Shown here in pieces: positions 34,976-58,016 of a DNA stretch of 64,000 bases. The stretch comes from Euglena gracilis (lineage: Eukaryota), in the NCBI GenBank assembly GCA_039621445.1, contig CP154954.1:33395455-33459454 (forward strand). The letters are read 5' to 3'. Position numbers and translations under genes: made by a program. Position 1 is the stretch's first letter, and each line of letters begins with the position of its first letter. A model generated the notes under the pieces. The model was not told the DNA's origin. It saw only the letters and a list, made by a program, of their open reading frames with translations, and made no database searches.

Positions 34976-35613
34976 TGGAAGTCTCATAATATTCTTTTGT
35001 TTTTATTGAAATCCTCGGATTCCCAATTTTTCTTGATATCCCAATTGTCCCAAAAGACGTAACACAATCAATGTAATGACATAACCAGAGCCAGCAGTCT
35101 GCACAGGAGGAAAGGTTCGAATTAGGAATACAAAGTTCGGTTCAGGCGGTTAGTAAATAGTCCGCACACGCCCCCCATGCCGGAGGACGCGGCGCCACAG
35201 GCACAGGACGAAACAGCATCACACCACAAACAAAATGGCTTTACTATGGTTCAAGCACGAATGAATGGTGTTCAACACGAATTGTCCACAAAAAAGGTTC
35301 AGAACGACAAATCTCAACACAAAGGAAGGTAAAAGAGGTTACTTCCGACGTTCAACGTGGTCCCTTCGCTTCGTGGTTGGCTTGCCCTTCAAAAGTAACA
35401 CAAACCTGGGCGAAACTCCTCGCATCAATGGCAGGTTTGTGACTGAAAGCCTTCAAAGGTTAGACAAAAATCCACCCATGGCGAGGCGGGTTGGTGTCTC
35501 CTGACCCGAAAAACCATCCAAAAGGCCCCCTGGGGGGCTTGACTTTCCTCCCGCGTGACTGAAAGCACGATCAAAACATTTGGGGGGAGGCCAGGCTGTC
35601 TCTTGAGATGCCA
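34976..35613 (-). repeat. Gypsy 3' LTR (~638 bp)
   Basis: It starts TGGCATCTCAAGA after purine-rich GAATGCGAATGGGGGT and ends GAGACTTCCA. The last ~123 bp are repeated at 41833-41955. The start coordinate is inferred from terminal complementarity. Confidence 0.75.
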
Positions 35614-36897
35614 ACCCCCATTCGCATTCTGAAACGTCGCAAAACATTCTGAGCGCCTGGCGTAGGATCGATTGTAAATTGTGATCCACACAATAATTCT
35701 TGAAAACCTCATTCATTCTGCCTCCTGGTTGCACAAAGGAAGCCACGGGCTCCCATGTACTGCTGCTTGCCGGAAAATTCTCCCACCAAACCAAAAATTT
35801 CCATCCCCCTTGGTACTTGTGCTTCAAAATCTTGTAAACATTGTAAAAACCCATTTGTGCTTGTTCTTCTTCTGACATCTGAAGGGGGGGATCCCCTCCC
35901 TGGTCTGGCATGGGGGTGTCACCCTCCACTGGGTCTCCCACAACCACTTCACCGGTCAAAAGGTCTGGGTCTTCTTCCAAAAGGCTTTCTTCATGCAAAG
36001 CAACCTCCCACCTTTTGCACAAACCCAAAGAGACATCAATGACCCCTCCCAAAGATGGACTACTTGCAATTTGCACTGAATTGAACCTCGATTTGAGAAC
36101 CCGAAAAGGTCCTTGCCAGGGGGGGGAAAGCTTGGGCCATGATTTGTTTGGCCATCTTTTGTTGTGCACCAAAACATAGTCATCTTCTTCAATTTTTGCT
36201 GGTACCCTCCCTTTGTTGGCACTCTCAAAATCTTTTTTCCTCAATTCTTTCAATCTCTGGGAAGCTCTTTCTTGAATTTCCATCTGGGTCAAAAGCCAAG
36301 AATGGGTTTCTGGATTTGTCACCGGTTCTGGGGGTAATTCCTACCTCCAAGCTGGTCTGCCCAAAAACATTTCATGGGGTGACAACATTGTTGTGGGGGA
36401 AATCTGCGAATTCATCAAAAATGTGCAATACGGGATCAGCTGCACCCAATTTTTGTCCTTGGAAGACAGACTCAATGCTCGCATATTTTGCAAGAACATT
36501 TTATTGACATTTTCAACCAAACCGTTTGATCGGGGGTTCCGGGGCAGAGAAAACGATAATTTCACGTCGAGAGCTTTCAGGGCTGTCTGATAAAAACCAC
36601 TGGGCTGTCTGAATCGCACGTCGTTGTCAGACCTCACAACGGATGGTTTTCCAAAAACAGAAATCCACCGGTCCAAAATAAGCCTCAAAACACCTTCTCC
36701 GGTTACCGTTTTCTGTGTGGGGATGAATTGGCAAAATGGGACAAATTGTCAACCAAAGTCAGCACATAGTCAAAACCATTGTAGGGGTCCATTTGCACAA
36801 ACTCCAAACACAAAAATTCATTGCTCACTGTTGGAATCGGTAAAGAACCCACCTTTCCACGGTCACTGGGGCGGTTTTGTTTTGAAAGGGTGCAAAT
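35453..36897 (-). CDS. Gypsy integrase core, GPF motif and chromodomain (interrupted by stops/frameshift)
   Basis: FGKPSVVRSDND and PRSNGLVENVN (DDE core), KLSPPWQGPFRV, and chromodomain YNVYKILKHKYQGGWKFLVWWENFPASSSTWEP. Confidence 0.9.
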
Positions 36898-39182
36898 TCA
36901 ACATGTCATCACAATGGCCCTGCAAATTTCCAACATGTCTTTCTTGGAAACCTTGGACTGAAAATGGCTAAAAAAAAACAACAATGTCCTTTCAGCACCA
37001 ACATGGTTGCTTGCCTTGTGACATTCATCCAAACAAACTTTCAACAAATGAGATGGAACAACCAACTTGCCATCACAATACATGGCCTTGGCAGATCTGA
37101 ACCAAAACTCATTGTCAATGAAACAGGGTTTTGAAACCTCCACTTTTTCCCAAAAATCCTTCAGCTCTGAATTCAAATAATCCTTTTCTGACACTTGCAC
37201 TCTGTGGGACAAACTGAAAATCTTCTGCAAAAACAGGTCAAGCTGCACATCCATTTTCTGAAAAGCGTTCCTTGCTTCTTTCTCAAAATGAATTTCAAAT
37301 TTGTTCTCAAAATCCGCACGAGACAGAAAATCACACAATTCATTTTTGCAACCTGCCACATGTACGATATTCAGTTTGAACTGGTGCAAAAACACATACA
37401 TCCTTCTCAGTCTTTTGTTGAGGGTGGGTTCACCCTTCAGGAAAGAGGTGGCTGCCTCATTGTCTGTCATCCACACAATTGGCAGGTTTTGCAAAATCCT
37501 CGTTTTTGAAGCAATGGTCAGCACACCACTCAAAATTTCTTTTTCCCAGGTAGTGTATTTTTTTCTTGCCTCACTCCATTTCCAGTTGTAGTGGCCCAAG
37601 GGCACCAACCTCATTTCACTGGGGTAGTTGTTTTTCAGGGTCCCATCCACCTTCACACCAGTTGTTCGAAAATTCTCAGGAATTTGTGTTTGTTGGAGGG
37701 TTTGCCACTGAAACAAAGCAGAACCACCTCCCAAATCCGAACTGTCAGTCACCAAAACAATCTCTCCTGAACTCCTGGGGGTACCCAAAACATCAAGAGA
37801 AGACAATTTCCTTTTCAATGCATTCAAACAACTCTCCTCCTTTTCAGTCCACCTCCATTTCACATTCTTTTTCAGCAGATCTGTGAGCGGGGCTGAGTCA
37901 AAAGTAAAACCTTTCACGTGTCTGCGGTAGAAATTCATGGCTCCCAAAATTCGCCTCAAATCCCTTTGATTCTGAACTCGAAAACTCAGAATTGGTTCAA
38001 TGTTTCTTTTGTTTGCCTGCCACATTCCCCATCCCAACGAGAAACCCAAATAGTCAATGGACTGATTCAGAAAGGAACATTTGCTCAATTTGATTCTCAC
38101 TTGGTTCTTTCTGCAAACTTCAAACCACTTTTCCAAAAGATACAAATGATCCTCTTCAGAGTTTGCACCAACCCCTGTGTCATCAAAAAAAGAAGCCAGG
38201 TGTCCATCCTTCAAAATCTCTCTCACCCTCAAATCCGTTTTGCATTGGGAGGTTAGAATTTCCATCAGCTCCTGAAAAATACCCGGTGCATTACTTAGGC
38301 CAAACATCATCCTTTTGGGACGAAAACACCTCCCAGATGGAATGCAAAATGCAGACAAATTTGCTGCTCTTTTTGTGATTGGGATTTGCCAATACCCACT
38401 CCTCATATCCAGGGTACTTTTCCAGCGACATTTGCCAAACTTTCAATCAAAACCTCCATGCTTGGCAAATAACCTGCATGTGCCTTGCTTCTGGCATTCA
38501 ATTTTCCATAATGGATGACCATCCTTCTGGTACTTGACCCTTTTTTGTCCACCAAAAATGTGGGGCTGCACACCTGGGTGATTTCACCAACTGGGAATTG
38601 CTCAATCAACCCTGACTTTAGCAATTCTTCACACTGAAGGTCAATTTCTTTTTCATCCTCCTGGGGCATGGGCCAACACTTTTGCCTTAGGGGTTTGCCT
38701 TCCCATTCAGGCTTTAGCTCAATGTCCATCAAAACAGGCAGGGGGGAAGACTCAGAAATTGTGGGCAATGGTCCAAAAACATCAGAAAATTTCACCAAAA
38801 GCTCATACAACCTGGGGTGGTCTCTGAATTTCTCAACTTCTTTTTCAAACTCTCCACTCAGATTCTCAGTAAACAATTTGCTGCTTTTTTCATCAGCCTT
38901 TTTCTGGGTCTCCAAAGTCCAAATCTTTTCATGCAAAACTTGGGAAATGCTTTTGAGTTCATCCATCTTGATTGTTGCCTTGGGAGTTTTCACAGGTTTT
39001 GCAAACTGAACATCTTCCACAGGCTGGGCCAGCTGGAAAAACATCACCTCCACATCTTTTCTCACCTCCTGAAAAAGACTCAGCTCACTTTCAATGTCCT
39101 TGGTCAACTCAGCCAAAAAATTGATGTTTTCATGCTCATTCATTGGTTCAAACACCACCACATTGTCCAACCACTCTTTCAC
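36898..39182 (-). CDS. Gypsy RT, RNase H and integrase zinc finger (frameshift near 38430)
   Basis: SPTFLVDKK..RMVIHYGKLN, MRSGYWQI, MMFGLSNAP, FFDD, VTDSSD, EKEIL, TDN, and H-x4-H..C. Confidence 0.93.
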
Positions 39183-39197
39183 CTTTTCTTCTGATTC

Positions 39198-41318
39198 CTA
39201 GGGGGGAACATTCTCCAAAGGAAAACTGGGACTTTCAAAAACTTGCTTGTCTGCAGGTGGACTGGCAGGCTGGGGTGCCTGCTGCAGGGGGGGAACATCA
39301 GGAAGATCTGGGAAATCAACTTGAATTCCATCATCCACTGTGGGGTACTTCCTGATCTCACCTCTCAGTTCATCCAAACTCCAATTCCTTGAAACTTTTC
39401 TGAGCCAACTGACAATTTTGGGGTCCAAAAGCTCAAAATCCACTTTGAATTGCACAGTGTCCACCACACTCACAAAAGTGTTCCACAGGGCGGAGGGCAG
39501 CACCTTTTTGCACCTGTCACCCACAAACAAGGGAACCCCACTTGAAATTTTCACCCTGGCCACAGTCACCCTTTCCAGCAGGGGGGACCAGTACTGATCC
39601 ACCCAGTCTGGGTGTACCAGGACCATTTTTGTTTCTTCAATGCACAACTTTGTCACCACCTTGCTTAGTTGGCTGAAGGGGGGGTTTGCCCACAGAAACT
39701 TGGAAGCACCAATGTCACACAACAACCTTTCCCATGAATACCTGTAGGCTGAATTCCCTTTCGTCATGTACAAAGACTGGGTGTGGTTCAGGTGGTTTGC
39801 AAAAAGATCAATGCAAATCTGACCCTCAGAAATCTTCAATTCATCCAAAGCTTTTGTCTTCACTGGCTTCACCAAAGTGTAGCTTTCTGTCTTGAAAAGT
39901 CTGAAAATTCTTTTGATGGTGTGGTCCCCATCATGGCTCTGAAGTAAAAACTCCTCACCATCAATGGTGATTCTGGGGGGTCTGGTCAGCAACCCACCAA
40001 AAAATTCACTTTCAGTAAAGTCAGTCCCCAAAACTGCCTCGAAGGCATTTGTTTCAACAACAACCGCTTTAAGCTTTAGAATTTTTCGTCCCAACTCCAA
40101 ACTCACCTCACACACTCCTTCACAAAAAATGTACTCCCCGTTGCCGATCTGCAGGGGTACCGTAGCACTCCGTTGAATTTTATTCTCTGGAACACATTTC
40201 TTAGAAACTGCAGTTATGGTGGCCCCAGTGTCCAAAATTGCTTGAATTTCCTTTCCATAAACCCTCACTGGCAAAAGATAAGTTTTACACACCATCTGGA
40301 GCAATTGTAAAGCATTAGCCTTTCTCTTTTTGGGGTCCTCACCCTGGGGGGTAACCTGGGTTTGCACTCCCTGGGGTTGAACCGAAGGGGTCCCTTTGCC
40401 TGCCCCCTTCTGGGCTGCTGCCTTCTTTTTCTCAAACTTTTCTTTTGACCAACATCTGTCTTCATAATGCCCTTTTTTGTGACAAAATCGACAGAAAATT
40501 GTGGCTCCAAATCGTGGGGCTGGGGTGTCATCAACTTTTCTTTCACCCTTGCCTTTGCCTTTTCCTTTGCCTTTTCCTTTTCCACCAGATTTTCCACCTT
40601 TTCCAGATTCTGGGACACTTTCACCAACTTTTTCAGATTGATCAGGGGGTCTTTCAATCAATGGTCTGAGATTTTCTTTTTTCAGCAAATTCCTCTCCAA
40701 CCAATCTTCAGAACTTTTCTCCAAAATTGTTTTTCTCAAATCTGTGAATGTCTCAGAACGATGTTTGTAAAATCTGTCTGCCCTGATGTCTGCATACATT
40801 CTGGGGTGTAATTTCCTCAGCAAAACCAAAAACTTTTCCTGTTCACTCATGGCCTGGGGGCTCAACCTGGCCATCAAATTGTCCAATTCAATGAAAAGTT
40901 TTTTGATGTCTTGGGGTTCAGGGTTCTGGGAAAGTGCTGGCAATTTGTCAATGGCAGATCTCAAAGTCATGTCATTTTCCAATGTTGGGAACAAATTTGC
41001 GATTTCCAACAGCACTTTTTCAAAATCATCATTCTCATCCATCACTTTTTCAACCAGTTTTTTTACCTTGGGGGTGCAACATTCCAACAGCCAATCCTTT
41101 TTCTGGACATTTCCAAATGCAACAGCACCAGTTAACCTCAACCATCTGCCAAAATCTTTCAAAAACTCTGGCCAATTTGTGCCATCAAACTCTGGCAATT
41201 TCACAGGGGGTAATCTTGAACTTTGGGTTGAACTTTGGCTGGGGTTGCTGGAATTTGGTTCAACAATTTGCTTCAGAAATGTTTCAACCTGGGTGATGGG
41301 GTTCACAGGGGTAAACAC
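39198..41318 (-). CDS. Gypsy gag, zinc knuckle, aspartic protease and Dam-like adenine methyltransferase
   Basis: LPEFDG, CRFCHKKGHYEDRC (CX2CX4HX4C), ILDTGA, then ESYTL..IDLFA..WANPPF..LVHPDW..W. Confidence 0.93.
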   Translation of the reverse strand: MFTPVNPITQVETFLKQIVEPNSSNPSQSSTQSSRLPPVKLPEFDGTNWPEFLKDFGRWLRLTGAVAFGNVQKKDWLLECCTPKVKKLVEKVMDENDDFEKVLLEIANLFPTLENDMTLRSAIDKLPALSQNPEPQDIKKLFIELDNLMARLSPQAMSEQEKFLVLLRKLHPRMYADIRADRFYKHRSETFTDLRKTILEKSSEDWLERNLLKKENLRPLIERPPDQSEKVGESVPESGKGGKSGGKGKGKGKGKGKGERKVDDTPAPRFGATIFCRFCHKKGHYEDRCWSKEKFEKKKAAAQKGAGKGTPSVQPQGVQTQVTPQGEDPKKRKANALQLLQMVCKTYLLPVRVYGKEIQAILDTGATITAVSKKCVPENKIQRSATVPLQIGNGEYIFCEGVCEVSLELGRKILKLKAVVVETNAFEAVLGTDFTESEFFGGLLTRPPRITIDGEEFLLQSHDGDHTIKRIFRLFKTESYTLVKPVKTKALDELKISEGQICIDLFANHLNHTQSLYMTKGNSAYRYSWERLLCDIGASKFLWANPPFSQLSKVVTKLCIEETKMVLVHPDWVDQYWSPLLERVTVARVKISSGVPLFVGDRCKKVLPSALWNTFVSVVDTVQFKVDFELLDPKIVSWLRKVSRNWSLDELRGEIRKYPTVDDGIQVDFPDLPDVPPLQQAPQPASPPADKQVFESPSFPLENVPP

Positions 41319-41816
41319 AGACTGACTGCTGCTGGCTGATTTATTTCCAATTCCTGCAACCTTCTTTCCAAATCTTCAATGGAGGACATTTCTGCAGATC
41401 ACTTTCAAAAAACTCAACCACTGGCTCTGAAAACTGGGAGAAACAGAAACACTGGCCAACCCAAAAAACAAACAAAAACTGAAGAAACCAGAACAGAAAA
41501 CCAACCAATTGGTTCAGGACCAGGTCAGCAAGATGATGAAGAACTTGCCTCCACCAAGATCTTGTTCTGGACAGCAAGGTGAACAGCAGCACTTACAAAC
41601 TTCCTCAACCAAATAACCAAAACAACAACTGTTGACAAACTCTCCACTGTGAACTTGTTCACCACAGCCTCAATGTCAACTTCTTGTTGAAGATGTTGTT
41701 CTGTACCAGCAACTTGGTTAACCTTGCCTTCAGGAACACCAACTTCTGGAACTTCAAAAACCAGTGAAACAATGTTGAATCTCCTCGAAGACGTCTTGGA
41801 CGATTGGAACAACAAA

Positions 41817-41828
41817 CCTCTGCGACCA
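41817..41828 (-). promoter_or_regulatory. Primer binding site, tRNA-iMet-like
   Basis: TGGTCGCAGAGG lies 4 nt after the LTR-terminal CA and has one mismatch to the animal-type iMet PBS TGGTAGCAGAGG. Confidence 0.75.
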
Positions 41829-41832
41829 ACTT

Positions 41833-41955
41833 TGGACGTCTCAGAATATTCTTTTGTTTTTATTGAAGTACTCGGATTCCCAATTTTTCTTGATATCCCA
41901 ATTGTCCCCAAAGACGTAACACAATCAATGTAATGACATAACCAGAGCCAGCAGT
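41833..41955 (-). repeat. Gypsy 5' LTR remnant (R-U5 part only)
   Basis: Near-identical to 34976-35098. Confidence 0.95.
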
Positions 41956-41981
41956 CGAAAAAAAATAGACACTCAGAAAGT
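41956..41981 (-). other. Euglenid spliced-leader exon sequence (retro-copied, not an SL RNA gene)
   Basis: ACTTTCTGAGTGTCTATTTTTTTTCG matches the 26-nt Euglena SL as I recall it. It is not followed by a GT donor. Confidence 0.93.
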
Positions 41982-44900
41982 GGCTGAATCCCAGTAAGGG
42001 GGTTACCATCAAAACTATGTTCGGCGGAAACATTGTAAATCTGGGCAGGAATTTTTGAATTGCTGACCAGGGGGGTTTTGCATAAAGGTCCCCCAAATTG
42101 TGTAGGGGACATTATAGTGCATCCACTGCTGATGCCTCCCCGTGGGGCCATCTGGCCACAAAATTGGGTAATTTTTTGTTCTCTGGGGAGGCAAATAAAT
42201 CTGTTTCCAAAGTTATGAACTGTTTGAAATGTTGATTGAGCCATTGAAAAATTTGGGGGTCCAGTGAGAAATCCCCCTTGTACCTGCTTAAGGGGTCTGC
42301 AAGGCATTCTTTTGCAGGAACCCCCTTTTTCTTGCAGGTTTATTTTGTGCTCCATGCACCATTTGAAAAAAGGTCTGAGCATTGTGTTGAAGGGGTCTTT
42401 TTTGCCTCCCCCTTTTGTCAGGTAATACAAAAGTACCTGATTGTCAACTGAAAGCAGAACTGTTTCTCCAGGTTTGCTTAGGCTTTTTATTGTGGTTATT
42501 GCTGCACTTAGTTCTTTGACATTTATGTGCATCGTGGACTTTTCCCTCCAAGATTCCTGCACAATGTTTCCTGTACGGATGTCTAATCCCCCCAGGCGTG
42601 GGTGCTGCTGTCTGAATGCAACTCCCTTGTGGCATTTTGGGGGAAGGGTCTTCCTTCCCATGTGTCCAGCAGAAGTTTTATTTCCTTTACTTGGTTTTTT
42701 ATTTTTGGTGAAATGTGATGTTTTGAGTCCCAGGGGGCTGTGGAGTGTTTTGCCAGAAAATTGGCCAGGGCATCCGTAAAAGCCCTGAGGATGGGCAGGG
42801 CCATCAGGTTGGACATTATTTGGCCCAAAATGGCAGCCAGCTGCCTTTTTGACATGAAATTCCTTTTTACATTTTTTCCCAGATCCTTTTTGATGGTATT
42901 GACTTTTTTTTGGGGGGGGTACTTGTAACTTTTCTTCTTGGAAGTTTAGCTGAAACCCCAGGTGGTTTACAATCTGGGTGGGTTCCAGGGTTTACCTTTT
43001 TACGTTGATTTTGAACCCTGATTTTAATAAATCCCTGACGACTGTGTTCAGGTGATTTTGTAGGGTGTTTCTGGTAGGGGCCACCACCAAAATGTCGTCC
43101 AGGTAAATGAATAGGTGGATGTATCTTTTCCTCCACAACTTTTCGAATGTTTCTATGACCCCCATGAAAATTTGGGGCATAATCTTCAGGCCAAAGCAGC
43201 CTGCTTGGAACACCCAAGTTTGCCCCCCTACCTGATGCCTCAAAAAAGGCCGTTGGGCCTGGCTCACTGGTATGAGAAAATAGGCATCCTTTAAGTGTAT
43301 TTTGGTTGCCCACTGGCCTTTTCCCATAATTGGGAAGATGTGCTGGATGTGATCCAGCTTGAAAGGTTTTACCTGGAACTGCTGGTTTGATTTCCTGCAG
43401 TAACTTATGAACCTCCACTTTGTTTCCCCCCCTCTGGTTTTGAAATTAGAGACCAGGGAATTAGATGTTGGGTTCCTGTATCCCGAACCCGCTTTATGGA
43501 CCCAGATTTTTCGTAATCCAACGGTATTTTTTTCTGCTTGGGTCAGGTTTAGATTTGCCCTGAATTTTGGGTGGGTGGACAATTTTGGGTTTCTGTCCCA
43601 GGGGGGTTGGATGCCATCTTTGGTTAGTTGGCAGGTTGCTGGGGGGCATTTTCGTTCCACCATTATAGGCTGTTTTGAAGTCTCTGGTGCAGGGGGGTGT
43701 TTTCCCACTTTTCCTCCATGGAAGTTATTTCTCCCAGCAAGTGTTTTTGTGGGGTTGTGGGCTGGGTTGATGACCATTTTCCATCCCATGGACACTTTGG
43801 GATGAATGCTCTGACCTGCTGATGGGTGGTTGGGAGAATGCAACCCCTGGGTTTACAGGAGGTTGTCGAAAAACTGCAGGGAGGGTGTGCATGCATCTCT
43901 CACACTCTCTCTGGTGACCCACTCTGATCTTGTTGTTGGTAGACATACCATAGGGGGGGCTCTGCGGGTCTCCCCCTTGGGTTGATCTTCCCCTGCCATG
44001 GGCAAAACAAAAAGATTTGACAGGGGGGCCACTGTGGGTTCCCTGTCCTCCTCCACAAGGTCCACTGTGGGTGGTACCTGGTCCCCCTTGTCCAAGGAAA
44101 GGGCCTCTGTGGGTCCCTTTGGGGGGTTTTCCTGGGGCTGGGCCATGCAGTAAGGCCCTTTCGGGCTGTAGCTGGTTAGCTTCTGGCTCCCAGGGCCTGT
44201 AAATTGATTCCCCCAGTGGGCTTGAAATTGTTGGCCGTAATGGCCTTGGCCCCCATGGCCTGGTTTGGCTTGATTTGATGTGGGTCTCCAGCTGCATGTG
44301 AAGCCTTGGGGGGCCTCTGTGGCCCCCCCTTTCCCCTTTGAGGGGTTGATAATGGGCGACATTTTGGGGGTTTTAAAAGACCTTTTTGCCCCGTCCAGTG
44401 GGCATGTGCTTGCAGAATTGGCCTCCAAGGCCTGGCCGATGTTGTCCCCCTTGGCCCTCATTCCATCTCCCCGTACGGGGGTTTTGAATTGCTGGGGACT
44501 TTGGTGGATGACCACCTTGGGGCCTCCATTGCTGCCCCTTGTGGGGGACAGGGCCCAACTTCTGGTTGAATGGGCTTGGTATTGGTTTTCGCTTTGGTTT
44601 CTTGGCCACCAATTGCCAAGGGCTGTGTCTGTCCCTTTTTGGGGTTGATGAATGTTCTGAAAAGGAAATTTTCTTTTGGGGAAAAGCCACGGATTGCCAG
44701 ATGGAGGCCGCACCAGCAGGTTCTCCAGCGGTATCTTCTCGGGCACGGTGTTGACCAGCTGTTACTTCTGAGCTCGTAGGTCTTTCATAGTTCGTTGAAT
44801 TAAATCTTTTCAAATTCCAATTCAACTTGATATTTCGGTCTTGACCACAGCTTCAATGCTAAATCCTGGTGTGGATGCTGTTCTCAACGAGGGAGTCGGT

Positions 44901-47750: not shown

Positions 47751-49535
47751 TACTTTTTTAGGAGGGGGTGAAAAAATTTGGTCAAAAAAATCGGACCAAA
47801 TTTTGGCACAATCAAATTTTAGTGAGATTTTTTCTCTTGGAATTTTTTGGATTTTCAATGGCATTCCTTGCTTCCAAAACGTGTCAAAATCAAAATTTTG
47901 AGTGTTGAAATTTTGGAAGGTGTGAAAAAATGGGGTTTTGGGGGTTTTTGGGGGGACGTCCTATATGGATCCCAAAATGGGTCCAAAATACACCCGGTGC
48001 CAAAGGCGCTGGGAAAAAAATTTGGGGTCCAAAAGTTGGTGCTCCCGGAAATAGGGGAAGAGGTGGTGGGGGGGGTCGACCCCCCCCACCAACCATGGAG
48101 GGGGGGGGGGGCGGTGGTCGACCCCCCACCCTGGCCGATTGCCGTCTGCCCTGGCCCTGGTTATGGAACGAAAATTTTCCCCAAGCCAGAGGGCTTGGGG
48201 AAAATGCTTGTTGGCTCACACCCGTTTTTGGGCAGGGAAAGGTGGTTTGAGACAACATCAGTTGTTGGAACTTCCCAGGAGCGCATCAACGCCGGAAAAA
48301 CTGAGTTCAGTTCTGTTCGTTGAGAGGCCAATGCGCTGTCGCAGCTGCCCACCGACATCCTTTGACAGGCAGAGAGGGCATGGGCCCAAATAACTGACCC
48401 CCAGGGCGATGTGCAGGGTGTGCAACACGAAGTCCACCAGCCTGAAGGGGTTGCTGAGGTACAGTGTTGCTGTCTGGGGAGCACACAAGAAGGCAGAGAT
48501 GACCAGACATTAGGACATTGGACATTGGAAGAAAAAAAAGGTGAGGGCACGCTGGCGGATGGGGGGGATGGGGGATGGGGAAGGCAAAGGAGGGGAGAGC
48601 CCTGGGTGTCGGACGGGAGGGCGGGGGGGGGGGGGGGGAGGGGAACGTGGCAGGGGGATGGGGATGCCAGTGGGCGGGGCCGGGGACTGCCAGAGTTGTG
48701 GGCCCTGCCGCACGGCAAGGCTCACACAGCTAAAGCTCAAGCCAAAGCTCACACTCACAAGCAAACTCCAAACCGGGGGATGCGAGAACGGCTGGGCCTG
48801 CGGTTCCCATCAGGGGGGGGTTCAATATGTGAAGACTGGAAAACTCAGGGTCTCTGTGAATGCTGTGAGGATCTCTGAAACAGGGCCATCCAGCAGGTGG
48901 AAAAGGGGGAAACACAGAAACGGCACTCATGCAAACTTGGCCCTCCAAGATTGCCCCCCCCCCCGGCCTTACCTTCAACCAAGTCCCAGACCAAGCGCTG
49001 GGGCGGGGGGCGGGGGGGCATTTTGATGTGAAGAAATGCTGGTCATCAAAATTTCAGTGTGAGGCTTTGGCTTCTCACAAACGGTTCGAAAGTGGGATGT
49101 CCAGCTCAAAATTTGCGTTGGGTTGCATTTTCGGAGTGCCATGCGCAAAATAAGCCAAAAAAGCCTAAAAATGGCGGGCGAAGATCGTTTGGGGGGGCCA
49201 ACTTTGCATGCAAGAAGGTGGGGGGGGGGGGGCGCGCATTGGGACGAAATCTTAAAAAAAAGTAGGAAAATCGGGGGGTCTTAAAATTGTTAAATAGTTT
49301 GGACCTTTATTTGCACCTATTTTTGACCAAACCTACTTTATATATGCCCAGTTCCCCCGGGAAACAAAAGACCACTCTTTTTGTTTATTTATTGTCTTTT
49401 TTGAAAAAAAAATATGAGCAATTGCCAACATAAGTTGATATACAAAACTTCTTGCTCATCAGAAGGTGGTTGGTTTGGAAAGGGGGAACAGCGTAAAGCC
49501 CCACCATTAGGGGAGGGTTACGGTAGGAGGAGGCT

Positions 49536-49935
49536 CCGTAGGAGGAGGCTCTAGAGCCTCCTCGAACACTGTTCGAGGAGGCTCTAGAGCCTCCTCGAAC
49601 ATTGTTCGAGGAGGCTCTAGAGCCTCCTCGAACGTGGTTCGAGGTCGTTCGAGGAGGCTCTAGAGCCTCCTCGAACGTGGTTCGAGGTCGTTCGAGGAGG
49701 CTCTAGAGCCTCCTCGAACGTGGTTCGAGGACGATCCAGGAGGCTCTAGAGCCTCCTCGAACGTGGTTCGAGGACGTTCGAGGAGGCTCTAGAGCCTCCT
49801 CGACCGTCGTTCGAGGTCGTTCGAGGAGGCTCTAGAGCCTCCTCGAACGTGGTTCGAGGGCGTTCGAGGAGGCTCTAGAGCCTCCTCGAACGTGGTTCGA
49901 GGAGGTTCGAGGAGGTCCTAGAGCCTCCTCCTACG
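49536..49935. repeat. Left array: about 10 copies of the 30-bp palindrome GTTCGAGGAGGCTCTAGAGCCTCCTCGAAC
   Basis: Linkers are 3 nt or 13 nt (gtggttcgaggtc). Confidence 0.97.
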
Positions 49936-49997: not shown

Positions 49998-50056
<59 letters not shown>

Positions 50057-50099
50057 GAATGTCTCCCAGTATCATTCCTGTATCTGCAATAGACTTTTG

Positions 50100-51272
50100 T
50101 CTGCCAACCCCTTCTCGGGTGCAAGTCGACGTAACCCTATCCCTTTCATTAACAAAATAAACCCCTTTTATCCGCCAACCCCTTTTATCCGCCAACCCCT
50201 TCTCGGCTGCAAGTCGACCTAACCCTATCCCTTTCATTAACAAAATAAACCCCTTTTATCCGCCAACCCCTTCTCGGGTGCAAGTCGACCTAACCCTATC
50301 CCTTTCATTAACAAAATAAACCCCTTTTATCTGCCAACCCCTTCTCGGGTGCAAGTCGACCTAACCCTATCCCTTTCATTAACAAAATAAACCCCTTTTA
50401 TCCGCCAACCCCTTTTATCCGCCAACCCCGTCTCGGCTGCAAGTCGACCTAACCCTATCCCTTTCATTAACGAAATAAACCCCTTTTATCCGCCAACCCC
50501 TTCTCGGCTGCAAGTCGACCTAACCCTATCCCTTTCATTAACAAAATAAACCCCTTTTATCTGCCAAACCCTTCTCGGGTGCAAGTCGACCTAACCCTAT
50601 CCCTTTCATTAACGAAATAAACCCCTTTTATCCGCCAACCCCTTCTCGGGTGCAAGTCGACCTAACCCTATGCCTTTCATTAACGAAATAAACCCCTTTT
50701 ATCCGCCAACCCCTTCTCGGGTGCAAGTCGACCTAACCCTATCCCTTTCATTAACGAAATAAACCCCTTTTATCCGCCAACCCCTTCTCGGGTGCAAGTC
50801 GACCTAACCCTATCCCTTTCATTAACGAAATAAACCCCTTTTATCCGCCAACCCCTTCTCGGCTGCAAGTCGACCTAACCCTATCCCTTTCATTAACAAA
50901 ATAAACCCCTTTTATCCGCCAACCCCTTCTCGGGTGCAAGTCGACCTAACCCTATCCCTTTCATTAACAAAATAAACCCCTTTTATCCGCCAACCCCTTC
51001 TCGGGTGCAAGTCGACCTAACCCTATCCCTTTCATTAACAAAATAAACCCCTTTTATCCGCCAACCCCTTCTCGGGTGCAAGTCGACCTAACCCTATCCC
51101 TTTCTATAATCAAATAAACCCCTTTTATCCGCCAACCCCTTCTCGGGTGCAAGTCGACCTAACCCTATCCCTTTCATTAACAAAATAAACCCCTTTTATC
51201 CGCCAACCCCTTCTCGGGTGCAAGTCGACCTAACCCTATCCCTTTCATTAACAAAATAAACCTCTTTTATCT
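50100..51272. repeat. 16 x 71-bp tandem array
   Basis: caagtcgac recurs 16 times with period 71. Two units are 88 bp because of a 17-bp internal duplication. Confidence 0.97.
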
Positions 51273-51516
51273 GCAGGTGAACAAATTTTGCAGGCAGGCA
51301 GGCGCAGTCATTAAATTTGCAAACAACAAAGGAGCAAAGCAAGAGCAGCAGTAAGCCAAAGCCAAGCCACCACACACAATCTCTCTCCTTCCCTCTCCCT
51401 CCCTCCCTCCCTCCCTCCGTCCCTCCCTCCCTCTCTCTCTCTCTCTCTCCCTCTCTCTCTCTTCGAAATCGGTATTCTTTGCTTTCATCGTACTCCGCGA
51501 TGAAGACGTTGTCGAT

Positions 51517-51592
51517 AGGGAGTTTCGCCCCGGCACGGTGGGGTTGGGGCTCCTCAGTGGGGACCCTCACCGGCCTTTTCCCCAGACTCCCT
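51517..51592 (-). ncRNA. Type III hammerhead ribozyme, copy A
   Basis: AGGGAG-UC / UGGGGA..UCCCCA / CUGAGGA / GCCCC..GGGGC / GAAA / CUCCCU gives a complete core and three perfect stems. Confidence 0.92.
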
Positions 51593-51770
51593 TCTTGGGT
51601 CGTCTTGCTTGGGCCCCGTCTTGAGCCTTCTCTTCCCCTTGCTCTTCTCAGGTGCGCTGTTGTTGGGTCAGCGTCCCAGCCTCGACGCCCGGGACAGCAC
51701 CCAGTCAGCGGAGGTCTTATCCTCAGCCGGCATGCATCGCATTGTCCGGGAGGGGGTGCTGTTTGTCTCC

Positions 51771-51862
<92 letters not shown>

Positions 51863-51901
51863 AATTGGATTCTTTTCTTGCATCCCTCGGACGTTGTCGC
51901 T

Positions 51902-51976
51902 AGGGAGTTTCGCCCCGGCACGGTGGGGTTGGGGCTCCTCAGTGGGGACCCTCACCGGCCTTTCCCCAGACTCCCT
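51902..51976 (-). ncRNA. Type III hammerhead ribozyme, copy B
   Basis: Same fold as copy A, inside a ~300-bp direct repeat separated from copy A by (CT)n. Confidence 0.92.
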
Positions 51977-52134
51977 TCTTGGGTCGTGCTTGGGCCCCGT
52001 CTTGAGCCTTCATTCCCCTTCTCAGGTGCGCTGTGGGGTCAGCGTCCAGCCTCGACCCCGGGACAGCACCCAGTCAGCGGATCTTATCCTCAGCCGGCAT
52101 GCATCGCATTGTCCGGGAGGGGGTGTGGTCTCTC

Positions 52135-52167
<33 letters not shown>

Positions 52168-52475
52168 ATCTCTCTTCTCTCTCTCTCTCTTTCCGCACGC
52201 AGGGTCTCCAGGCTCTCTCTCTCTCTCCTCTCTCCTCTCTATCTCTCTCTTCTGAACGGTGTTGCTGGGGGAACTCCTTGGGGGGGAACTCCTTGCCGAC
52301 CGAGAGTGTGTGCTTGTGGGGGAAGTGTGTGTCAGTCGTGTGGCGCGGTTGTCAGTCTGTGTTGCGGTTTCGCCCCAGGCTGGCAGGTGGGGCATCGTCA
52401 GGGGTGACGACCTGCCAACCCTCGTCCCCGACCGCTCTGTCTGTGTGGTCCGTTACAAACGAGCTCTGCACCCTC

Positions 52476-54980
<2,505 letters not shown>

Positions 54981-57339
54981 CGCAAGGAAATCCTCTGTTG
55001 AGGGAGCATGTGCTTGGTCCAGCGGTATGGCGGTGGCCCACGGGGCAGGCGGCGCACGGTTTGGGCCGTTGAGAAGCCACCTCCACACCTTGGAGAACCA
55101 GCTGCGGAGCTCGCGGACCCGGATGTCGGTGGCATGCCAGCGCTGGAAGAGGAAACGGCTCCACACAGACTGCACCAGGCGGCGTGAATACCCCCGCCAA
55201 ATGGCGTTGCGGAAGACGTTTGCCACCGACTGCTTGAAGTCGCCCATGTGACTGCACGCCATGCGGGCAAACTCCAGCCGCCCCATGATGACACCACCCA
55301 GCTGCTCCGTGGGTGCCGTGGTGGTGGCCAGCGGATAGCGCACGATGTGGTGGGGGTAATCTGCCTCCCGGTCGTGGACGGTGGTGTGGACCACCCGCTC
55401 CTCGTTGCTGTGGGTGAGAATGTACACCCTCACGCCCAGGCACACCACGGACTCGCCACTGGCTGTCACCTTGTACTCCATGCCGTATTCTGCTGCGGTG
55501 GGCAGGGGCATTGTGCTCGGGTGCACGATGTCATCGATGTACCGTGACACGGCTGTGGATCGGAGCTGAGGCGGGAGGGAAAGCATATGGTCGCGTTCCA
55601 CGGGGTAACAGGCCAGATTGGCCAGCTGTGGGGCTGGTGGGAGGCCCATCGGCATGCCGCGTATCTGCCGCCGGACCTTCCCCCCATTGCAGGTGTAGTT
55701 GTTGTTCACCGCTGTGGACACCAGCTCCTTCAGGTCGGACATTGTGTAGCCCAGGCCGTCCCAGGACCAGCCGCCCGTGGTGAGCGTGGGGTCGGTGTTT
55801 GCGTCGATGCCCACTGGCGTCTTGGTGTCACGGATGAACGCCCACGCCTCGCGCACGGACTCCATCGTGCGGCTGACAATGGAGTCGAAGGTGAAGGCTG
55901 TGTACATTGTGGTGAAGTCTGCCGTCTCCAAGCCTCCGGCCAGGATGTCCTTGGAGTGTGAACGCACCATGCGGACGAAGGACTCCACACTGTCAATGCC
56001 CCAGAATGCTTTGATGCCCTCGTGCTGCTGCCGCAGCTCGTCCTTCTCCCGCAGTGCACCCTCGATGTGCTTCAGGAGCAACACCAACGCCTTGTTGAGG
56101 GCGTAGAGGGGCTGCCTGGGAGGCTCTTTTGGGGCATCTTGGCGGTCGATGGCTCCCGTGTCGCTGCTGGAGTCGCGGCTCTTGCGGGTCCCGGCAATGA
56201 ACCGGAACTTCTGCTTGGCAGGCTTCCAGATGCCATAGTTGTACACAACCCCGGCACCCGTGGGGAAGCTGAGCCGCTTGTTGATGTCGCTGAGGTGTGC
56301 CACGACATCACTCCAGCTCCCCGGCACGTCCTCGAAGACCGTGGAATCTGCGAGGTAGGCCGCCATTTGCTTCTGGTACCACCGCTTGCAGATGAACACC
56401 AAGCCGTGTGGTGCTCGGTCGTCATGGAGGAACACCAGCTCCTTTTGTGCCTCCCGGATCTGCTGCGACAATCCAGGGAACCCCGTGGGGACGAGGTCCT
56501 CCTTCACTGCTGAGCGTTGCCAGTTGGCACAGCACCGTGCTTCCACCGCCTCTGCCCAGGTTGTGAGCTTGCGGGCGAAAGATGCATCGGTGGGGTTGCT
56601 GCGCGCCGCCCACTCTGTGTACTGGTTGAGCGCTCGCCGCAGGTCGTGGAGGACAGAGTCCGGAGGGCCCTCGAGGCGGAACTTCTTGCCCTTCGCGGCG
56701 AGTGTCTGGAGGTAGGACCATCTCTCTTTCCGCACACAGCGGTAAAAGAGCCAGGCGGTTTCGGATCCAGCCGGGCCTTCCTTGTCGATGCCCCCGACGC
56801 CCGGCTGGTGGGGGCAGACCGCCTGGTGACGGGGCACTCATGTTCCGCGGGTGGGCGCGTCATGGACCCCAAGGGTATGCGGACCCTCAGGGCCACCCAC
56901 GGCTCCATCCAGGCAGGCGAGATAAAGCCCCGTGGGCACCCACCTGGAGAGCGGCTCCGCGTGTTGCATGGCCCTCGGGTGCTGCCGTCACCCGAGGAAC
57001 GGCCCAGGAACTCCGGTTGCCAGGAGCGGGGACCCCGGGGGCCACTCGCCCCACTCCTTGGCGTGAAGGTGGTCACCACTCTGGGATACTCTGGTCCACG
57101 GCCGGCGCCGATTGGGGTCCTGGCAGCATCTGAAGCCAGTCCAGCCAAGGTTGAGCACAGCTGTGCTTCCCCCACTTTCGGGCTTAAGCCAGTGGCACTG
57201 GAGTCTCCCTCTTGGCAGCGCTTTCGCACTTGGGAGGTCTGGGCTTGGTGAGGGTCGCCGGCGGCTGGGCTGTGGGTGTGGGATATTGGCTGGGGAGCAT
57301 GTGGCGGCCCGCCTGCAAAACCTTCCGGCTCCACGGGTA

Positions 57340-57460
57340 GCCGGGGTAGGCTGCGTTGAAGCCGTGTGGCCACATGGTATTGAGGAGACCGACCCACTTG
57401 CGCTCCAGAGCCAGGCGTCCCGGGGATGATGGCAGGCGCTCTGCCCGGGGGAAAAAACTG
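57340..57460 (-). pseudogene. C-terminal remnant of a GIY-YIG endonuclease
   Basis: RLALERKWVGLLNTMWPHGFN fits the E..W...L.T..P.G.N signature. Confidence 0.75.
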
Positions 57461-57500
57461 TCGGGTGGCGGAGCTTCTCCCGCCACCCGAGAAGAGAGAG

Positions 57501-57552
<52 letters not shown>

Positions 57553-57596: not shown

Positions 57597-58016
57597 GGAG
57601 GAGGCTCGAGATTTCGTTCGACGAGGCTCTAGAGCCTCCTCGAACGACCTCGAACCACGTTCGAGGAGGCACTAGCGCCTCCGAGAACGACCTCGAACCA
57701 CGTTCGAGTAGGCTCTAGAGCCTCCTCGAACCTCCTCGAACCACGTTCGAGGAGGCTCTAGAGCCTCCTCGAACGACCTCGAACCACGTTCGAGGAGGCT
57801 CTAGAGCCTCCTCGAACGACCTCGAACCACGTTCGAGGAGGCTCTAGAGCCTCCTCGAACATGGTTCGAGGAGGCTCTAGAGCGTACTCGAACGCGGTTC
57901 GAGGAGGCTCTAGAGCCTCCTCGAACCACTTTTAAGCCCCCCCTAGAGGGGGGGGGGCTTAAAAATGTTCGAGGAGGCTCGAGGTCGAACGCTCGATCTC
58001 GAGCCTCCTCCTACGG
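57597..58016. repeat. Right array: about 8 copies of the same 30-bp palindrome, inverted linkers
   Basis: The linker gacctcgaaccac is the reverse complement of the left linker. An extra hairpin ttttaagccccc..gggggcttaaaa lies at ~57930-57964. Confidence 0.97.

What the first reader, a model, noticed from the sequence alone, without database searches (positions are those of the whole stretch)
51460..52130. Tandem type III hammerhead ribozymes with a loop-loop pseudoknot downstream of the PLE
Seen: two complete type III hammerheads on the PLE sense strand. Loop I (GGCCGGUGAGGG) is complementary to loop II (CCCCACCGUGCC), predicting a Watson-Crick kissing interaction. The GUC cleavage sites (plus-strand 51969 and 51585) are 384 nt apart and enclose a (GA)n tract. 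Known: PLE pseudo-LTRs carry hammerheads, mostly type I or minimal forms, whereas type III is typical of plant retrozymes and viroid-like RNAs. Inference: these sites process the PLE RNA and could release a 384-nt monomer that circularises as a retrozyme-like RNA primed at (CT)n sites.
Basis: partly seen in the sequence, partly recalled or inferred. Interest (0 to 1): 0.8.

Follow-up and report, generated by a model that had tools for sequence, protein, structure and literature searches.

The report
Pseudoknotted hammerhead ribozymes beside a dead retrotransposon
Three self-cleaving hammerhead RNA motifs of an unusual form sit in short, highly repeated mobile-element units stacked in a GA microsatellite next to a broken Penelope-like retrotransposon, a class of element thought to carry only minimal hammerheads.

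Summary
Two type III hammerheads (HHR) lie on the minus strand at 51902-51976 and 51517-51592. Their GUC sites are 384 nt apart (Rfam RF00008, 40 bits, E about 5e-7, below the 48.5 gathering score). A third, different type III HHR lies at 52364-52435.

The long loop I/loop II Watson-Crick complementarity is real. It recurs with unrelated sequences in HHR-X and in two HHRs found beside related reverse transcriptases in metagenome contigs. All 7 tested pseudoknot pairs covary.

The neighbouring element is a Penelope-like element of the Naiad/Chlamys kind: a telomerase-like RT, a CxC motif, and an N-terminal GIY-YIG nuclease in relatives. This copy is dead and has no HHR of its own.

Each HHR sits in a short non-coding unit (X 235 nt, Y1 270 nt, Y2 303 nt). 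Each unit ends, like the PLE, in ...GAAGAG(AG)n. Y1 and Y2 are only 88% alike outside a perfectly conserved HHR, and Y is highly repeated and dispersed in the source organism.

Best reading: these are PLE-dependent, retrozyme-like or SINE-like units nested in one (GA)n tract, not the PLE's own pseudo-LTR. Cleavage and circles remain untested. Verdict: a new variant of a known kind.

The parts
51902..51976 (-). Hammerhead Y1, type III. Helix III is AGGGAGU/ACUCCCU with cleavage after C51969. Helix I is 6 bp with a 14-nt loop. The core is CUGAGGA. Helix II is 5 bp with a 14-nt loop, followed by GAAA.
   Evidence: Rfam RF00008 40.2 bits; own scan 6/5/7 bp; own model R1 84.3 bits
51517..51592 (-). 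Hammerhead Y2. It is identical to Y1 except for one extra A in loop I. Cleavage is after C51585.
   Evidence: Rfam 40.0 bits; R1 87.3 bits; 75 matches, 0 substitutions and 1 gap against Y1
52364..52435 (-). Hammerhead X, type III. Helix III is GCGGU/ACCGC with cleavage after C52430. Helix I has one bulge. The core CUGACGA carries an extra U before helix II. Loop I GGUUGGCAGG is complementary to the whole of loop II, CCUGCCAGCC.
   Evidence: own scan; R1 66.0 bits, though it was part of the training set; duplex -18.6 kcal/mol; missed by Rfam
51859..52128 (-). Unit Y1, 270 nt and non-coding. The HHR starts about 150 nt from its 5' end. The 3' end is ...CCAATTTCGA followed by (AG)n.
51463..51765 (-). 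Unit Y2, 303 nt, 88% identical to Y1. The 5' boundary near 51764 is confirmed by a second, identical copy elsewhere that has a different 5' flank.
   Evidence: records 10 and 11; loose ends at 51764
52251..52485 (-). Unit X, 235 nt. The HHR starts about 50 nt from its 5' end. Downstream lie AAGGAGTTC (twice) and CAACACC, then ...TTCAGA followed by (AG)n. It resembles the stretch after the HHR in the related PLE L001.
52486..52580 (-). (GA)47 on the sense strand. It is the tail or target tract between the PLE body and unit X.
52129..52250 (-). Imperfect (GA)n between units X and Y1
51766..51858 (-). (GA)46 between units Y1 and Y2
51380..51462 (-). (GA)n/(GGGA)n tract after unit Y2
52581..57503 (-). 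Dead Penelope-like element body, GC 63%. The RT frame is 54939-56837. Only the tail of the GIY-YIG nuclease is kept (57334-57405), in another frame and followed by a stop. The element ends ...CACCAATCTGGA followed by (AG)47.
57504..57549 (-). (GA)23 immediately upstream of the PLE body
53090..53131 (-). Conserved CCATTTTCGGGG... site. In relatives L004 and L020 a CT-rich tract and the hammerhead follow within about 100 nt. Here, as in L010, no hammerhead follows.

Best explanation
The three motifs are functional type III hammerhead ribozymes of one lineage. That lineage is defined by a stable open helix III and by a long Watson-Crick pairing between loops I and II. It travels with a Naiad/Chlamys-type Penelope-like element family.

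At this locus the hammerheads are not part of the neighbouring PLE copy, which is dead and has no hammerhead. They lie in three short non-coding retroelement units. X is probably an extreme 5'-truncated or derived PLE 3' end. Y1 and Y2 belong to a hugely amplified non-autonomous family. The PLE and all three units have the same orientation and the same kind of 3' end (CCRWT...GAAGAG followed by (AG)n), and they are stacked in a single (GA)n microsatellite.

Shown here: the motifs, their covariation, selective conservation of the HHR between Y1 and Y2, high repetition and dispersal of Y, the PLE class, and the presence of the same HHR type inside related PLEs that are arranged in tandem.

Inferred: the PLE's RT and nuclease mobilise the units by target-primed reverse transcription at (GA)n/(TC)n. 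The hammerhead cuts read-through or multimeric transcripts in cis just 5' of itself, giving unit-length RNAs with 5'-OH and 2',3'-cyclic phosphate ends. At this locus those would be 461 nt (X to Y1) and 384 nt (Y1 to Y2), and a host ligase may circularise them, as in retrozymes. The loop-loop pairing holds helices I and II parallel for fast cleavage.
For: Core and helices are complete in all 3 motifs.

The same architecture occurs in metagenome loci L001/L004 and L020, on the RT strand. These two HHRs have different sequences.

On the 5-row alignment (Y1 and Y2 nearly identical) 96.6% of cells pair. Fourteen of 24 pairs change on both sides, against 6.3 +/- 1.7 in shuffles (0 of 500 shuffles reach it). 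The pseudoknot helix covaries at 7 of 7 pairs.

Cognate loop duplexes are -18.6 to -23.9 kcal/mol, against -3.0 to -13.8 for non-cognate loops (the Y1/Y2 cells left out, since the two share their loop II); 0 to 0.4% of shuffles do as well.

Between Y1 and Y2 the HHR has 0 substitutions in 75 nt. The rest of the unit has 14 substitutions in 195 aligned nt plus 32 gap columns (Fisher p = 0.013 for substitutions, 1e-5 with gaps counted).

In DNA run X1, 121 contigs lie on Y2. Their summed word depth is about 7,300 over the middle of the unit and up to 107,000 over the HHR. None of the 3 variant places at >=5% lies inside the HHR. Some contigs join (TC)n directly to 51577 or 51533, which indicates 5'-truncated copies. 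A second copy identical to Y2 has a different 5' flank beyond 51764. A leaf-litter metatranscriptome contig of 288 nt covers 51482-51764 (all).

PLE class: the top 9 fold hits of the RT model are all telomerase RTs. The N-terminal domain is conserved in 9 loci with invariant Y, Y-G, R, H, E and N, and its model hits the I-TevI catalytic domain at ranks 1-3. The alignment consensus carries CxC...GHV.

L001 and L004 are circular permutations of one 5.37-kb unit with one HHR, and L010 is a head-to-tail tandem.

The 3' ends of the PLE, X, Y1 and Y2 align.
Against: No cleavage, RNA ends or circles were observed. All sequencing runs were available only as contigs, which cannot show ends.

The one RNA contig bridges the cleavage site, so it comes from uncleaved RNA, religated RNA or contaminating DNA.

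Both Rfam hits are below the gathering score.

The shared 3' motif is only about 14 nt, and the link between the Y units and this RT is circumstantial.

Only 3 of 12 related loci with enough flank (my count from the table) hold a hammerhead. The hammerhead is therefore dispensable for the PLE.

The 384-nt monomer is not unusually structured, unlike published retrozyme circles.

In a single unit the HHR is internal, so cleavage would split the unit. This makes sense only for tandem or read-through transcripts, or if the 3' product is what gets copied.

A nested fold prefers the loop-loop helix (-32.7 kcal/mol) to the canonical helices I and II (-25.8), and 10-11 bp cannot all form together with both stems. 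Part of the complementarity may therefore serve another state.

The covariation rests on 4 independent sequences, and the tested structure was derived from those same sequences.
Confidence: 0.6

Rival explanations
1. First reader's model. The hammerheads are the PLE's own pseudo-LTR ribozymes. They process this PLE's transcript and release a 384-nt retrozyme-like monomer that circularises.
For: They lie on the same strand, 2.5-3.4 kb downstream of the RT frame. In relative L004 the hammerhead lies 2.0 kb downstream of the RT, within a tandem unit. Two cleavage sites 384 nt apart exist.
Against: The PLE body ends in its own (GA)47 with a 3' end like those of the short units. It lacks the HHR cassette at the homologous site. 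The PLE copy is dead. Y has no similarity to the PLE or to X outside the hammerhead. Y is dispersed with other flanks, and contigs covering it carry very high summed word depth in a DNA run. Y1 and Y2 are 88% alike, so the 384-nt product would be a chimera.
Confidence: 0.15
2. The long loop I/loop II complementarity is mainly an alternative, cleavage-incompetent hairpin, not a tertiary pseudoknot of the active fold. It would act as an on/off switch that protects processed or ligated RNA, as in hammerhead viroids.
For: The nested minimum-energy fold of Y1, Y2 and X uses the loop-loop helix in place of helices I and II (-32.7 against -25.8 kcal/mol for Y1). The complementarity spans 10-11 bp and leaves 0-2 linker nucleotides, which is too long to coexist fully with both stems. 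Published pseudoknots are mostly 4-6 bp (passages of PMC3088659).
Against: Helices I and II also covary (2 pairs each), so the hammerhead fold itself is selected. The central 5-7 bp are in register in all four sequences, as expected for a kissing contact. Watson-Crick contacts between stems I and II are a known activating device in about 40% of hammerheads.
Confidence: 0.3
3. This is a plant-type LTR retrozyme, with Y1 and Y2 as the two hammerhead-bearing LTRs.
For: Type III hammerheads; two direct repeats of about 300 nt; GC about 60%; a purine tract between them.
Against: The interval between the repeats is only (GA)46. No tRNA-Met primer-binding motif lies in or near it: the only match in the whole window at <=2 mismatches is at 63895. 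The repeats are 88% alike rather than near-identical. A single Y unit occurs elsewhere on its own.
Confidence: 0.03
4. This is non-mobile satellite DNA that happens to encode hammerheads, like newt satellite 2. Alternatively the motifs are chance look-alikes without activity.
For: The locus is rich in tandem repeats. The Rfam scores are below gathering.
Against: Only two units are adjacent, and they are separated by a microsatellite. Dispersed and 5'-truncated copies exist. Exactly 3 hits in the window against 1 hit in 20 shuffles. Covariation is seen in all four helices. The HHR is conserved relative to the rest of the unit.
Confidence: 0.05

Closest known systems
Hammerheads of Penelope-like elements, including the Chlamys and PLE-X families of Chara and Selaginella (Craig et al. 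2021, PMC8557442; Cervera and de la Pena 2014, recalled and seen only in reference lists)
   Same: A hammerhead lies on the sense strand between consecutive ORFs of tandemly arranged PLEs. Elements insert into microsatellites, including (CT)n for Chlamys-3 and Chlamys-5 of Chara. An extra nucleotide follows CUGAUGA in several entries. By my reading of their File S2, loop 2 is complementary to the sequence just 3' of stem I.
   Different: Every entry of their File S2 that I saw is type I with a 2-4 bp helix III. Here helix III is open and 5-7 bp long, helix I is closed, and the ribozyme should cut as a monomer. Their text says Naiad and Chlamys elements lack canonical hammerheads apart from two subclades.
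Metazoan non-LTR retrozymes (Cervera and de la Pena 2020, PMC7229834; Li et al. 2026 preprint 10.64898/2026.07.22.740005)
   Same: Short (170-400 nt) non-coding repeats, each with one hammerhead, proposed to be non-autonomous partners of PLEs.
   Different: Those carry type I hammerheads with non-canonical loop contacts, have GC below 50%, form long uninterrupted tandem arrays and give highly self-paired circles. Here the hammerheads are type III with Watson-Crick loop pairing, GC is about 60%, the units are separated by (GA)n and also dispersed singly, and the monomer is not rod-like.
Plant LTR retrozymes (Cervera et al. 2016, PMC4918200; seen in search listings and through passages of PMC7229834 and PMC7761336)
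   Same: Type III hammerheads in GC-rich non-autonomous retroelements.
   Different: No LTR-core-LTR layout, no PBS, and no link to Ty3/gypsy elements. The partner here is a PLE.
Pseudoknot-stabilised hammerheads (Perreault et al. 2011, PMC3088659) and the type III variants of HDV-like circular RNAs (PMC7761336, PMC7936874)
   Same: Watson-Crick pairing between stem I and stem II elements holds the two stems parallel. It is reported for all three permutations and in about 40% of hammerheads. Type III forms with 'conserved pseudoknot interactions' are mentioned for HDV-like agents.
   Different: The complementarity here is 10-11 bp and takes up nearly the whole of both loops, whereas mostly 4-6 bp are described. 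The genomic context is a eukaryotic retrotransposon.

Membership tests
Hammerhead ribozyme, type III (Rfam RF00008) | Conserved core: C3-U4-G5-A6-N7-G8-A9, G12-A13-A14, an A15.1-U16.1 pair, and a non-G residue at position 17 | tested here: met
   All present in Y1, Y2 and X. X has one extra U between A9 and helix II.
Hammerhead ribozyme, type III (Rfam RF00008) | Three helices around the core, with helix III open and helices I and II closed by loops, supported by covariation | tested here: met
   Helix I/II/III lengths are 6/5/7 bp in Y and 3 (8 with a bulge)/6/5 bp in X. Pairs changed on both sides: helix III 3 of 7, helix I 2 of 5, helix II 2 of 5 (5 rows, 4 of them independent).
Hammerhead ribozyme, type III (Rfam RF00008) | Score at or above Rfam's gathering threshold (48.5 bits) | tested here: not met
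   40.2 and 40.0 bits for Y1 and Y2. X is not reported at E<=10. L001 and L020 are not reported at E<=1. The long loops and the extra U cost the score.
Hammerhead ribozyme, type III (Rfam RF00008) | Site-specific self-cleavage | not testable with these tools
   The runs were available only as contigs. An in vitro transcription assay is needed.
Penelope-like elements, Naiad/Chlamys (N-terminal nuclease) clade | Telomerase-like reverse transcriptase | tested here: met
   Model from a 25-sequence alignment, mean pLDDT 76. Foldseek ranks 1-9 are all TERT, E 1e-7 to 4e-6. Pfam gives only a weak RVT_1 match.
Penelope-like elements, Naiad/Chlamys (N-terminal nuclease) clade | GIY-YIG endonuclease N-terminal to the RT | tested here: met
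   Met in relatives: a domain conserved in 9 loci, whose model hits I-TevI at ranks 1-3 (E 4e-3, target TM 0.67-0.69). Pfam does not detect it. In the window copy only its last 24 residues remain.
Penelope-like elements, Naiad/Chlamys (N-terminal nuclease) clade | [quoted passage not shown] | tested here: met
   CxC...GHV is in the A1 consensus and in the L001 frame. There are no cysteines between GIY and YVG in 8 of 9 rows. The ninth, L051, is Naiad-like and has them. No tree with named reference PLEs was built.
Penelope-like elements, Naiad/Chlamys (N-terminal nuclease) clade | Partial tandem or inverted copies (pseudo-LTRs) and insertion into microsatellites | tested here: met
   L001/L004 are circularly permuted, L010 is a tandem, and L008 is inverted. 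The window copy is flanked by (GA)23 and (GA)47.
Non-LTR retrozymes (metazoan type) | Type I hammerhead in every unit of a tandem array | tested here: not met
   The hammerheads are type III. My own type I scan finds 0 hits in the window and 79 loci. Only two adjacent units are present, and they are separated by (GA)46.
Non-LTR retrozymes (metazoan type) | Monomer RNA that is circular and highly self-paired | tested here: inconclusive
   Circularity is not testable here. The predicted circular fold is -103.9 kcal/mol, z = -0.83, 47% paired.
Plant LTR retrozymes | Two hammerhead-bearing LTRs around a core with a tRNA-Met PBS and a PPT | tested here: not met
   No PBS match in the region. The interval between the repeats is only (GA)46. 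The repeats are 88% alike.

The most novel reading that the evidence does not exclude
This is a third kind of retrozyme. Type III hammerhead units with (GA)n tails would be copied by Chlamys-type Penelope-like elements into (GA)n/(TC)n microsatellites in a fixed orientation. The unusually long, covarying loop I/loop II duplex would act as a switch between a cleaving pseudoknotted fold and a protected extended hairpin. The hammerhead module itself would be a cassette that moves between PLEs and their parasites, which would explain its patchy presence (3 of 12 related loci).
Probability: 0.25. Interest if true: 0.75.

Novelty: new variant of a known kind. Interest (0 to 1): 0.6.

Why it matters
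The literature read here states that PLE hammerheads are minimal type I motifs without helix III or loop-loop contacts and of unknown role (PMC7761336 passages). It also states that Naiad/Chlamys PLEs mostly lack canonical hammerheads (PMC8557442 passages). This locus and its metagenome relatives show a full-size, monomer-competent type III hammerhead with a Watson-Crick loop contact in that clade, and in abundant short derivatives.

This extends the proposed PLE-retrozyme partnership, so far argued for type I elements in animals (preprint), to a different ribozyme topology, and probably to a non-animal lineage. The lineage is only a lead: the nearest protein clusters are streptophyte, chlorophyte and rotifer.

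It also shows that standard Rfam annotation misses these ribozymes, so published absences may be detection failures.

Finally, the four natural variants with different loop sequences form a ready-made compensatory series for testing how long loop-loop helices affect hammerhead folding.

Tried and rejected
- No whole genome is held for the window, so copies could not be counted directly.
- The default Rfam scan lists nothing. The whole-window E<=1 scan adds only spurious miRNA and sRNA matches on the 43-nt palindromic satellite.
- Model R1 found no further hammerheads in the window plus 79 loci. The 5 extra rows at E 1.4-9.6 were judged to be noise.
- My scan row for L005 (minus strand, 5/3/3 bp with about 90 nt inside helix I) was dropped as spurious.
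- The apparent (GA)n in L010 turned out to be purine-rich coding sequence, not a microsatellite.
- Pfam and PDB sequence searches did not recognise the nuclease domain. Only the fold search did.
- The PDB sequence search with the RT gave nothing useful.
- Contigs cannot show RNA ends, strand or circles. The joints at 51542/51581 and 51643/51764 are each a single contig of run X1 and were not interpreted.
- Contigs that join (TC)n to 51577, 7 nt from the cleavage site, hint at copies made from cleaved RNA. This is one contig with an ambiguous purine-rich junction, so it is a lead only.
- The organism was not determined.
- No tree with named PLE reference proteins was built, because the reference sequences in the supplement are cut and are not session sequences.
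Full report
**What is there**

Reading the minus strand, the stretch 52130-51460 holds two copies of a roughly 270-300-nt unit separated by (GA)46. Each copy contains a complete type III hammerhead.

Rfam's Hammerhead_3 model aligns end to end at 51902-51976 (40.2 bits) and 51517-51592 (40.0 bits). E-values are about 5e-7 in a 1-kb scan and 3e-5 in the whole window. Both scores are below the curated 48.5 bits, so the default scan is empty. The alignment shows that the loss comes from 13-15 inserted loop nucleotides.

My own descriptor required CUGANGA, an optional extra base, helix II, GAAA, an open helix III, a non-G residue at position 17 and a closed helix I. It finds exactly three sites in 64 kb on both strands, with cleavage after 52430, 51969 and 51585. 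Twenty shuffles gave one hit in total.

X has a different sequence and an extra U after CUGACGA. Its loop I is complementary to the whole of its loop II.

**The loop-loop pairing**

The quoted loops of Y pair over 11 bp with two single bulges (-18.9 kcal/mol). X pairs over 10 bp (-18.6 kcal/mol).

I searched for DNA around relatives of the neighbouring reverse transcriptase in metagenome contigs and obtained 79 loci, 216 kb. The same descriptor finds type III hammerheads on the RT strand in L001, L004 (the same element as L001) and L020. A fourth, weak row in L005 was discarded.

These hammerheads again have long loops whose sequences are unrelated to X and Y but mutually complementary (-23.9 and -20.6 kcal/mol). 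Non-cognate combinations of loop I and loop II give -3.0 to -13.8 kcal/mol (the Y1/Y2 cells left out, since the two share their loop II). Shuffled loops reach the observed energy in 0 to 0.4% of 2000 trials each.

On the five-row alignment A2, with helices I-III and a 7-bp pseudoknot written in:
- 96.6% of cells pair;
- 14 of 24 pairs change on both sides, against 6.3 +/- 1.7 in shuffles (0 of 500 reach it);
- slid controls drop to 38-56% pairing;
- all 7 pseudoknot pairs covary.

Three caveats apply. There are only four independent sequences. The structure was derived from those same sequences. The outer pseudoknot pairs are not in one register and were left out of the count.

Watson-Crick contacts between stems I and II are a known device in about 40% of hammerheads of all three permutations, usually 4-6 bp (passages of PMC3088659). 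What is unusual here is the length. It leaves 0-2 linker nucleotides, so not all 10-11 pairs can coexist with both stems. A nested fold even prefers the loop-loop helix to helices I and II (-32.7 against -25.8 kcal/mol for Y1). A role as an alternative, protective conformer is therefore kept as a rival.

**The neighbour is a Penelope-like element, but a dead one without a hammerhead**

The frame 54939-56837(-) gives only a weak RVT_1 match. It has 49 relatives among metagenome proteins. A model built on 25 of them (mean pLDDT 76) has telomerase RTs as its nine best PDB matches.

In L001 a long open frame adds two features upstream of the RT:
- a CxC...GHV motif;
- a domain reading GWIYGLY...GRWYVGQT...R...H...E...N.

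That domain is conserved in nine loci. Pfam does not see it, but its model (pLDDT 82) hits the I-TevI GIY-YIG catalytic domain at ranks 1-3.

An N-terminal GIY-YIG without internal cysteines, a CxC linker and a TERT-like RT match the description of the Naiad/Chlamys clade, Chlamys-like, in passages of PMC8557442. I built no tree with named references.

Arrangements among relatives:
- L001 and L004 are circular permutations of one 5.37-kb unit with a single hammerhead. The hammerhead lies 2.0 kb after the RT and about 0.5 kb before the nuclease domain.
- L010 is a head-to-tail tandem.
- L008 is an inverted pair.

These are the arrangements that produce pseudo-LTRs.

The window copy keeps only the last 24 residues of the nuclease, about 100 nt after (GA)23. 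That remnant is in another frame and is followed by a stop.

At the conserved site CCATTTTCGGGG (53131-53090), L004 and L020 continue into a CT-rich tract and then the hammerhead. The window copy, like L010, continues without one.

The element then ends ...CACCAATCTGGA followed by (AG)47.

By my count from the table, 12 related loci have enough flank to show a hammerhead, and only 3 do.

**The hammerheads belong to short separate units**

On the sense strand the order is:

(GA)23 | PLE | (GA)47 | X (235 nt) | (GA)n | Y1 (270 nt) | (GA)46 | Y2 (303 nt) | (GA/GGGA)n.

All four pieces have the same orientation, and their 3' ends align: CC[AG][AT]T, three bases, then GAAGAG. X also shares AAGGAGTTC and CAACNACC with the stretch after the hammerhead in L001. 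X therefore looks like the 3' end of a hammerhead-bearing PLE. Y shares nothing with X or the PLE outside the ribozyme.

Y1 and Y2 are 88% identical by BLAST. Inside the hammerhead there are 75 matches, no substitution and one inserted A. Outside it there are 181 matches, 14 substitutions and 32 gap columns (p = 0.013 for substitutions, 1e-5 with gaps counted). This is the pattern expected for two insertions from ribozyme-competent source copies. It is not the pattern of a decaying tandem duplicate.

**Public sequencing runs (names coded, contigs only)**

Findings from one DNA run:
- 121 contigs lie on Y2 in this run (50 at >=99% identity, 27 at 95-99%, 32 at 90-95%, 12 below 90%).
- Their summed word depth is about 7,300 over the middle of the unit, 22,000-50,000 over its first 45 nt, and 60,000-107,000 over the hammerhead. 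The tool warns that this is not a copy number. It does show that the ribozyme segment is shared by far more sequence than the rest of the unit.
- Only three variant places reach 5%, and none lies inside the hammerhead.
- Single contigs join (TC)n directly to 51577 and to 51533, which indicates 5'-truncated copies abutting the microsatellite.

Findings from other runs:
- Two further runs hold a copy identical to Y2 whose sequence beyond 51764 differs from the window. This fixes the 5' boundary of the unit and shows dispersal. These runs may come from the source organism and are not independent of it.
- A leaf-litter metatranscriptome holds a 288-nt contig covering 51482-51764 with 5 differences. 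It bridges the cleavage site and so says nothing about cleavage.

**How it most likely works**

Shown here: the ribozyme motifs, their covariation, their selective conservation, the repetition and dispersal of Y, the PLE class, and hammerheads of the same type inside tandem PLE relatives.

Inferred from established knowledge of hammerheads and retrozymes (passages):
- Transcripts that run through more than one unit are cut just 5' of each ribozyme.
- The pieces carry 5'-OH and 2',3'-cyclic phosphate ends. At this locus they would be 461 nt (X to Y1) and 384 nt (Y1 to Y2).
- Such ends are substrates for RtcB-type ligases, so circles are possible.
- The PLE's nuclease and RT then copy RNAs carrying the shared 3' end into (GA)n/(TC)n tracts. 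The strand asymmetry of the tract would fix the orientation.

Points against a classical retrozyme circle: the 384-nt product would be a chimera of two diverged units, and it is not unusually structured (z = -0.83, 47% paired).

An alternative use also fits the depth profile but is untested. In it, the ribozyme frees a 3' product (hammerhead plus tail) that is the piece copied, as HDV-like ribozymes do at the 5' ends of some non-LTR elements (statement in PMC7761336).

**Comparison and novelty**

Published PLE hammerheads are minimal type I motifs. Every Chlamys, PLE-X and Hydra entry that I saw in File S2 of PMC8557442 has an open stem I and a 2-4 bp stem III. A review states that PLE hammerheads lack helix III or loop-loop contacts. 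Several of those entries nevertheless share two features with the present ones:
- an extra base after the first core strand;
- by my reading, a loop 2 complementary to the sequence just after stem I.

The present ribozymes may therefore be a circular permutation of the same design.

Metazoan non-LTR retrozymes share the idea of a short hammerhead-bearing PLE parasite. They differ in ribozyme type, GC content, array structure and fold. Plant LTR retrozymes share the type III ribozyme but not the layout: there is no PBS, no core, and the repeats are 88% alike.

Three literature searches listed no paper describing type III hammerheads in PLEs:
- Penelope-like + hammerhead + type III: 14 papers;
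- Penelope-like + Naiad + Chlamys + hammerhead: 4 papers;
- retrozyme + hammerhead + microsatellite + non-autonomous: 39 papers, 15 listed.

Subscription journals and bioRxiv supplements were not visible, and I judged most of these papers from listings only.

I rate the finding a new variant of a known kind, of moderate to good interest for ribozyme and transposon specialists. The biochemistry remains entirely untested.

Noticed in passing
window 49523-49930 and 57615-57929: The same 43-nt palindromic satellite flanks the whole block on both sides. The PLE, the hammerhead units and the 71-nt array therefore look like nested insertions into one (GA)n tract inside that satellite. The satellite produces spurious sub-threshold Rfam matches (mir-5429, STnc400 and others).
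   Followed up: partly
window 50094-51271: A 71-nt tandem array of about 16 copies (97% matches). It lies between (TC)27 at 50000-50054 and the (CTCC)n/(TC)n tract at 51380-51462, so it too is bracketed by the GA/TC microsatellite.
   Followed up: no
window 35456-44761 (-) and 3680-6754 (+): Other retroelements are present. One is a Ty3/gypsy-like pol with aspartyl protease, RT, RNase H and a chromodomain. A separate frame has a strong RVT_1 match. The window is transposon-rich with no obvious host gene.
   Followed up: no
L001:1585-1659 and L020:421-495: Rfam at E<=1 reports no hammerhead in these loci although both hold complete ones. The extra U after A9 together with the long loops defeats the RF00008 model.
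   Followed up: yes
File S2 of PMC8557442: In the Chara entries the printed loop 2 is complementary to the printed sequence just 3' of stem I (Chlamys-2, Chlamys-5, PLE-X1). I did not see this Watson-Crick tertiary contact mentioned in the passages I read.
   Followed up: partly
L010:2700-2760 compared with L004:3205-3320 and L020:320-427: The hammerhead with its upstream CT-rich tract behaves as a presence/absence cassette at one conserved site among related PLEs.
   Followed up: partly
window 52790-52866 (-) and 52267-52295: A (CAG)n run of about 26 repeats lies in the PLE 3' region and reads as poly-Q in the open frame. Within unit X there is a 15-nt tandem duplication.
   Followed up: no
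window 57500-57462 (-): Directly after (GA)23 the PLE starts with TTTCTCTCTCTTCTC and a GC-rich hairpin. This resembles the TCTCTCTG plus hairpin found about 95 nt after the hammerhead in L001 and L020. It may mark the true 5' end of the unit, in which case the window copy has an internal deletion of most of the nuclease rather than a 5' truncation.
   Followed up: partly
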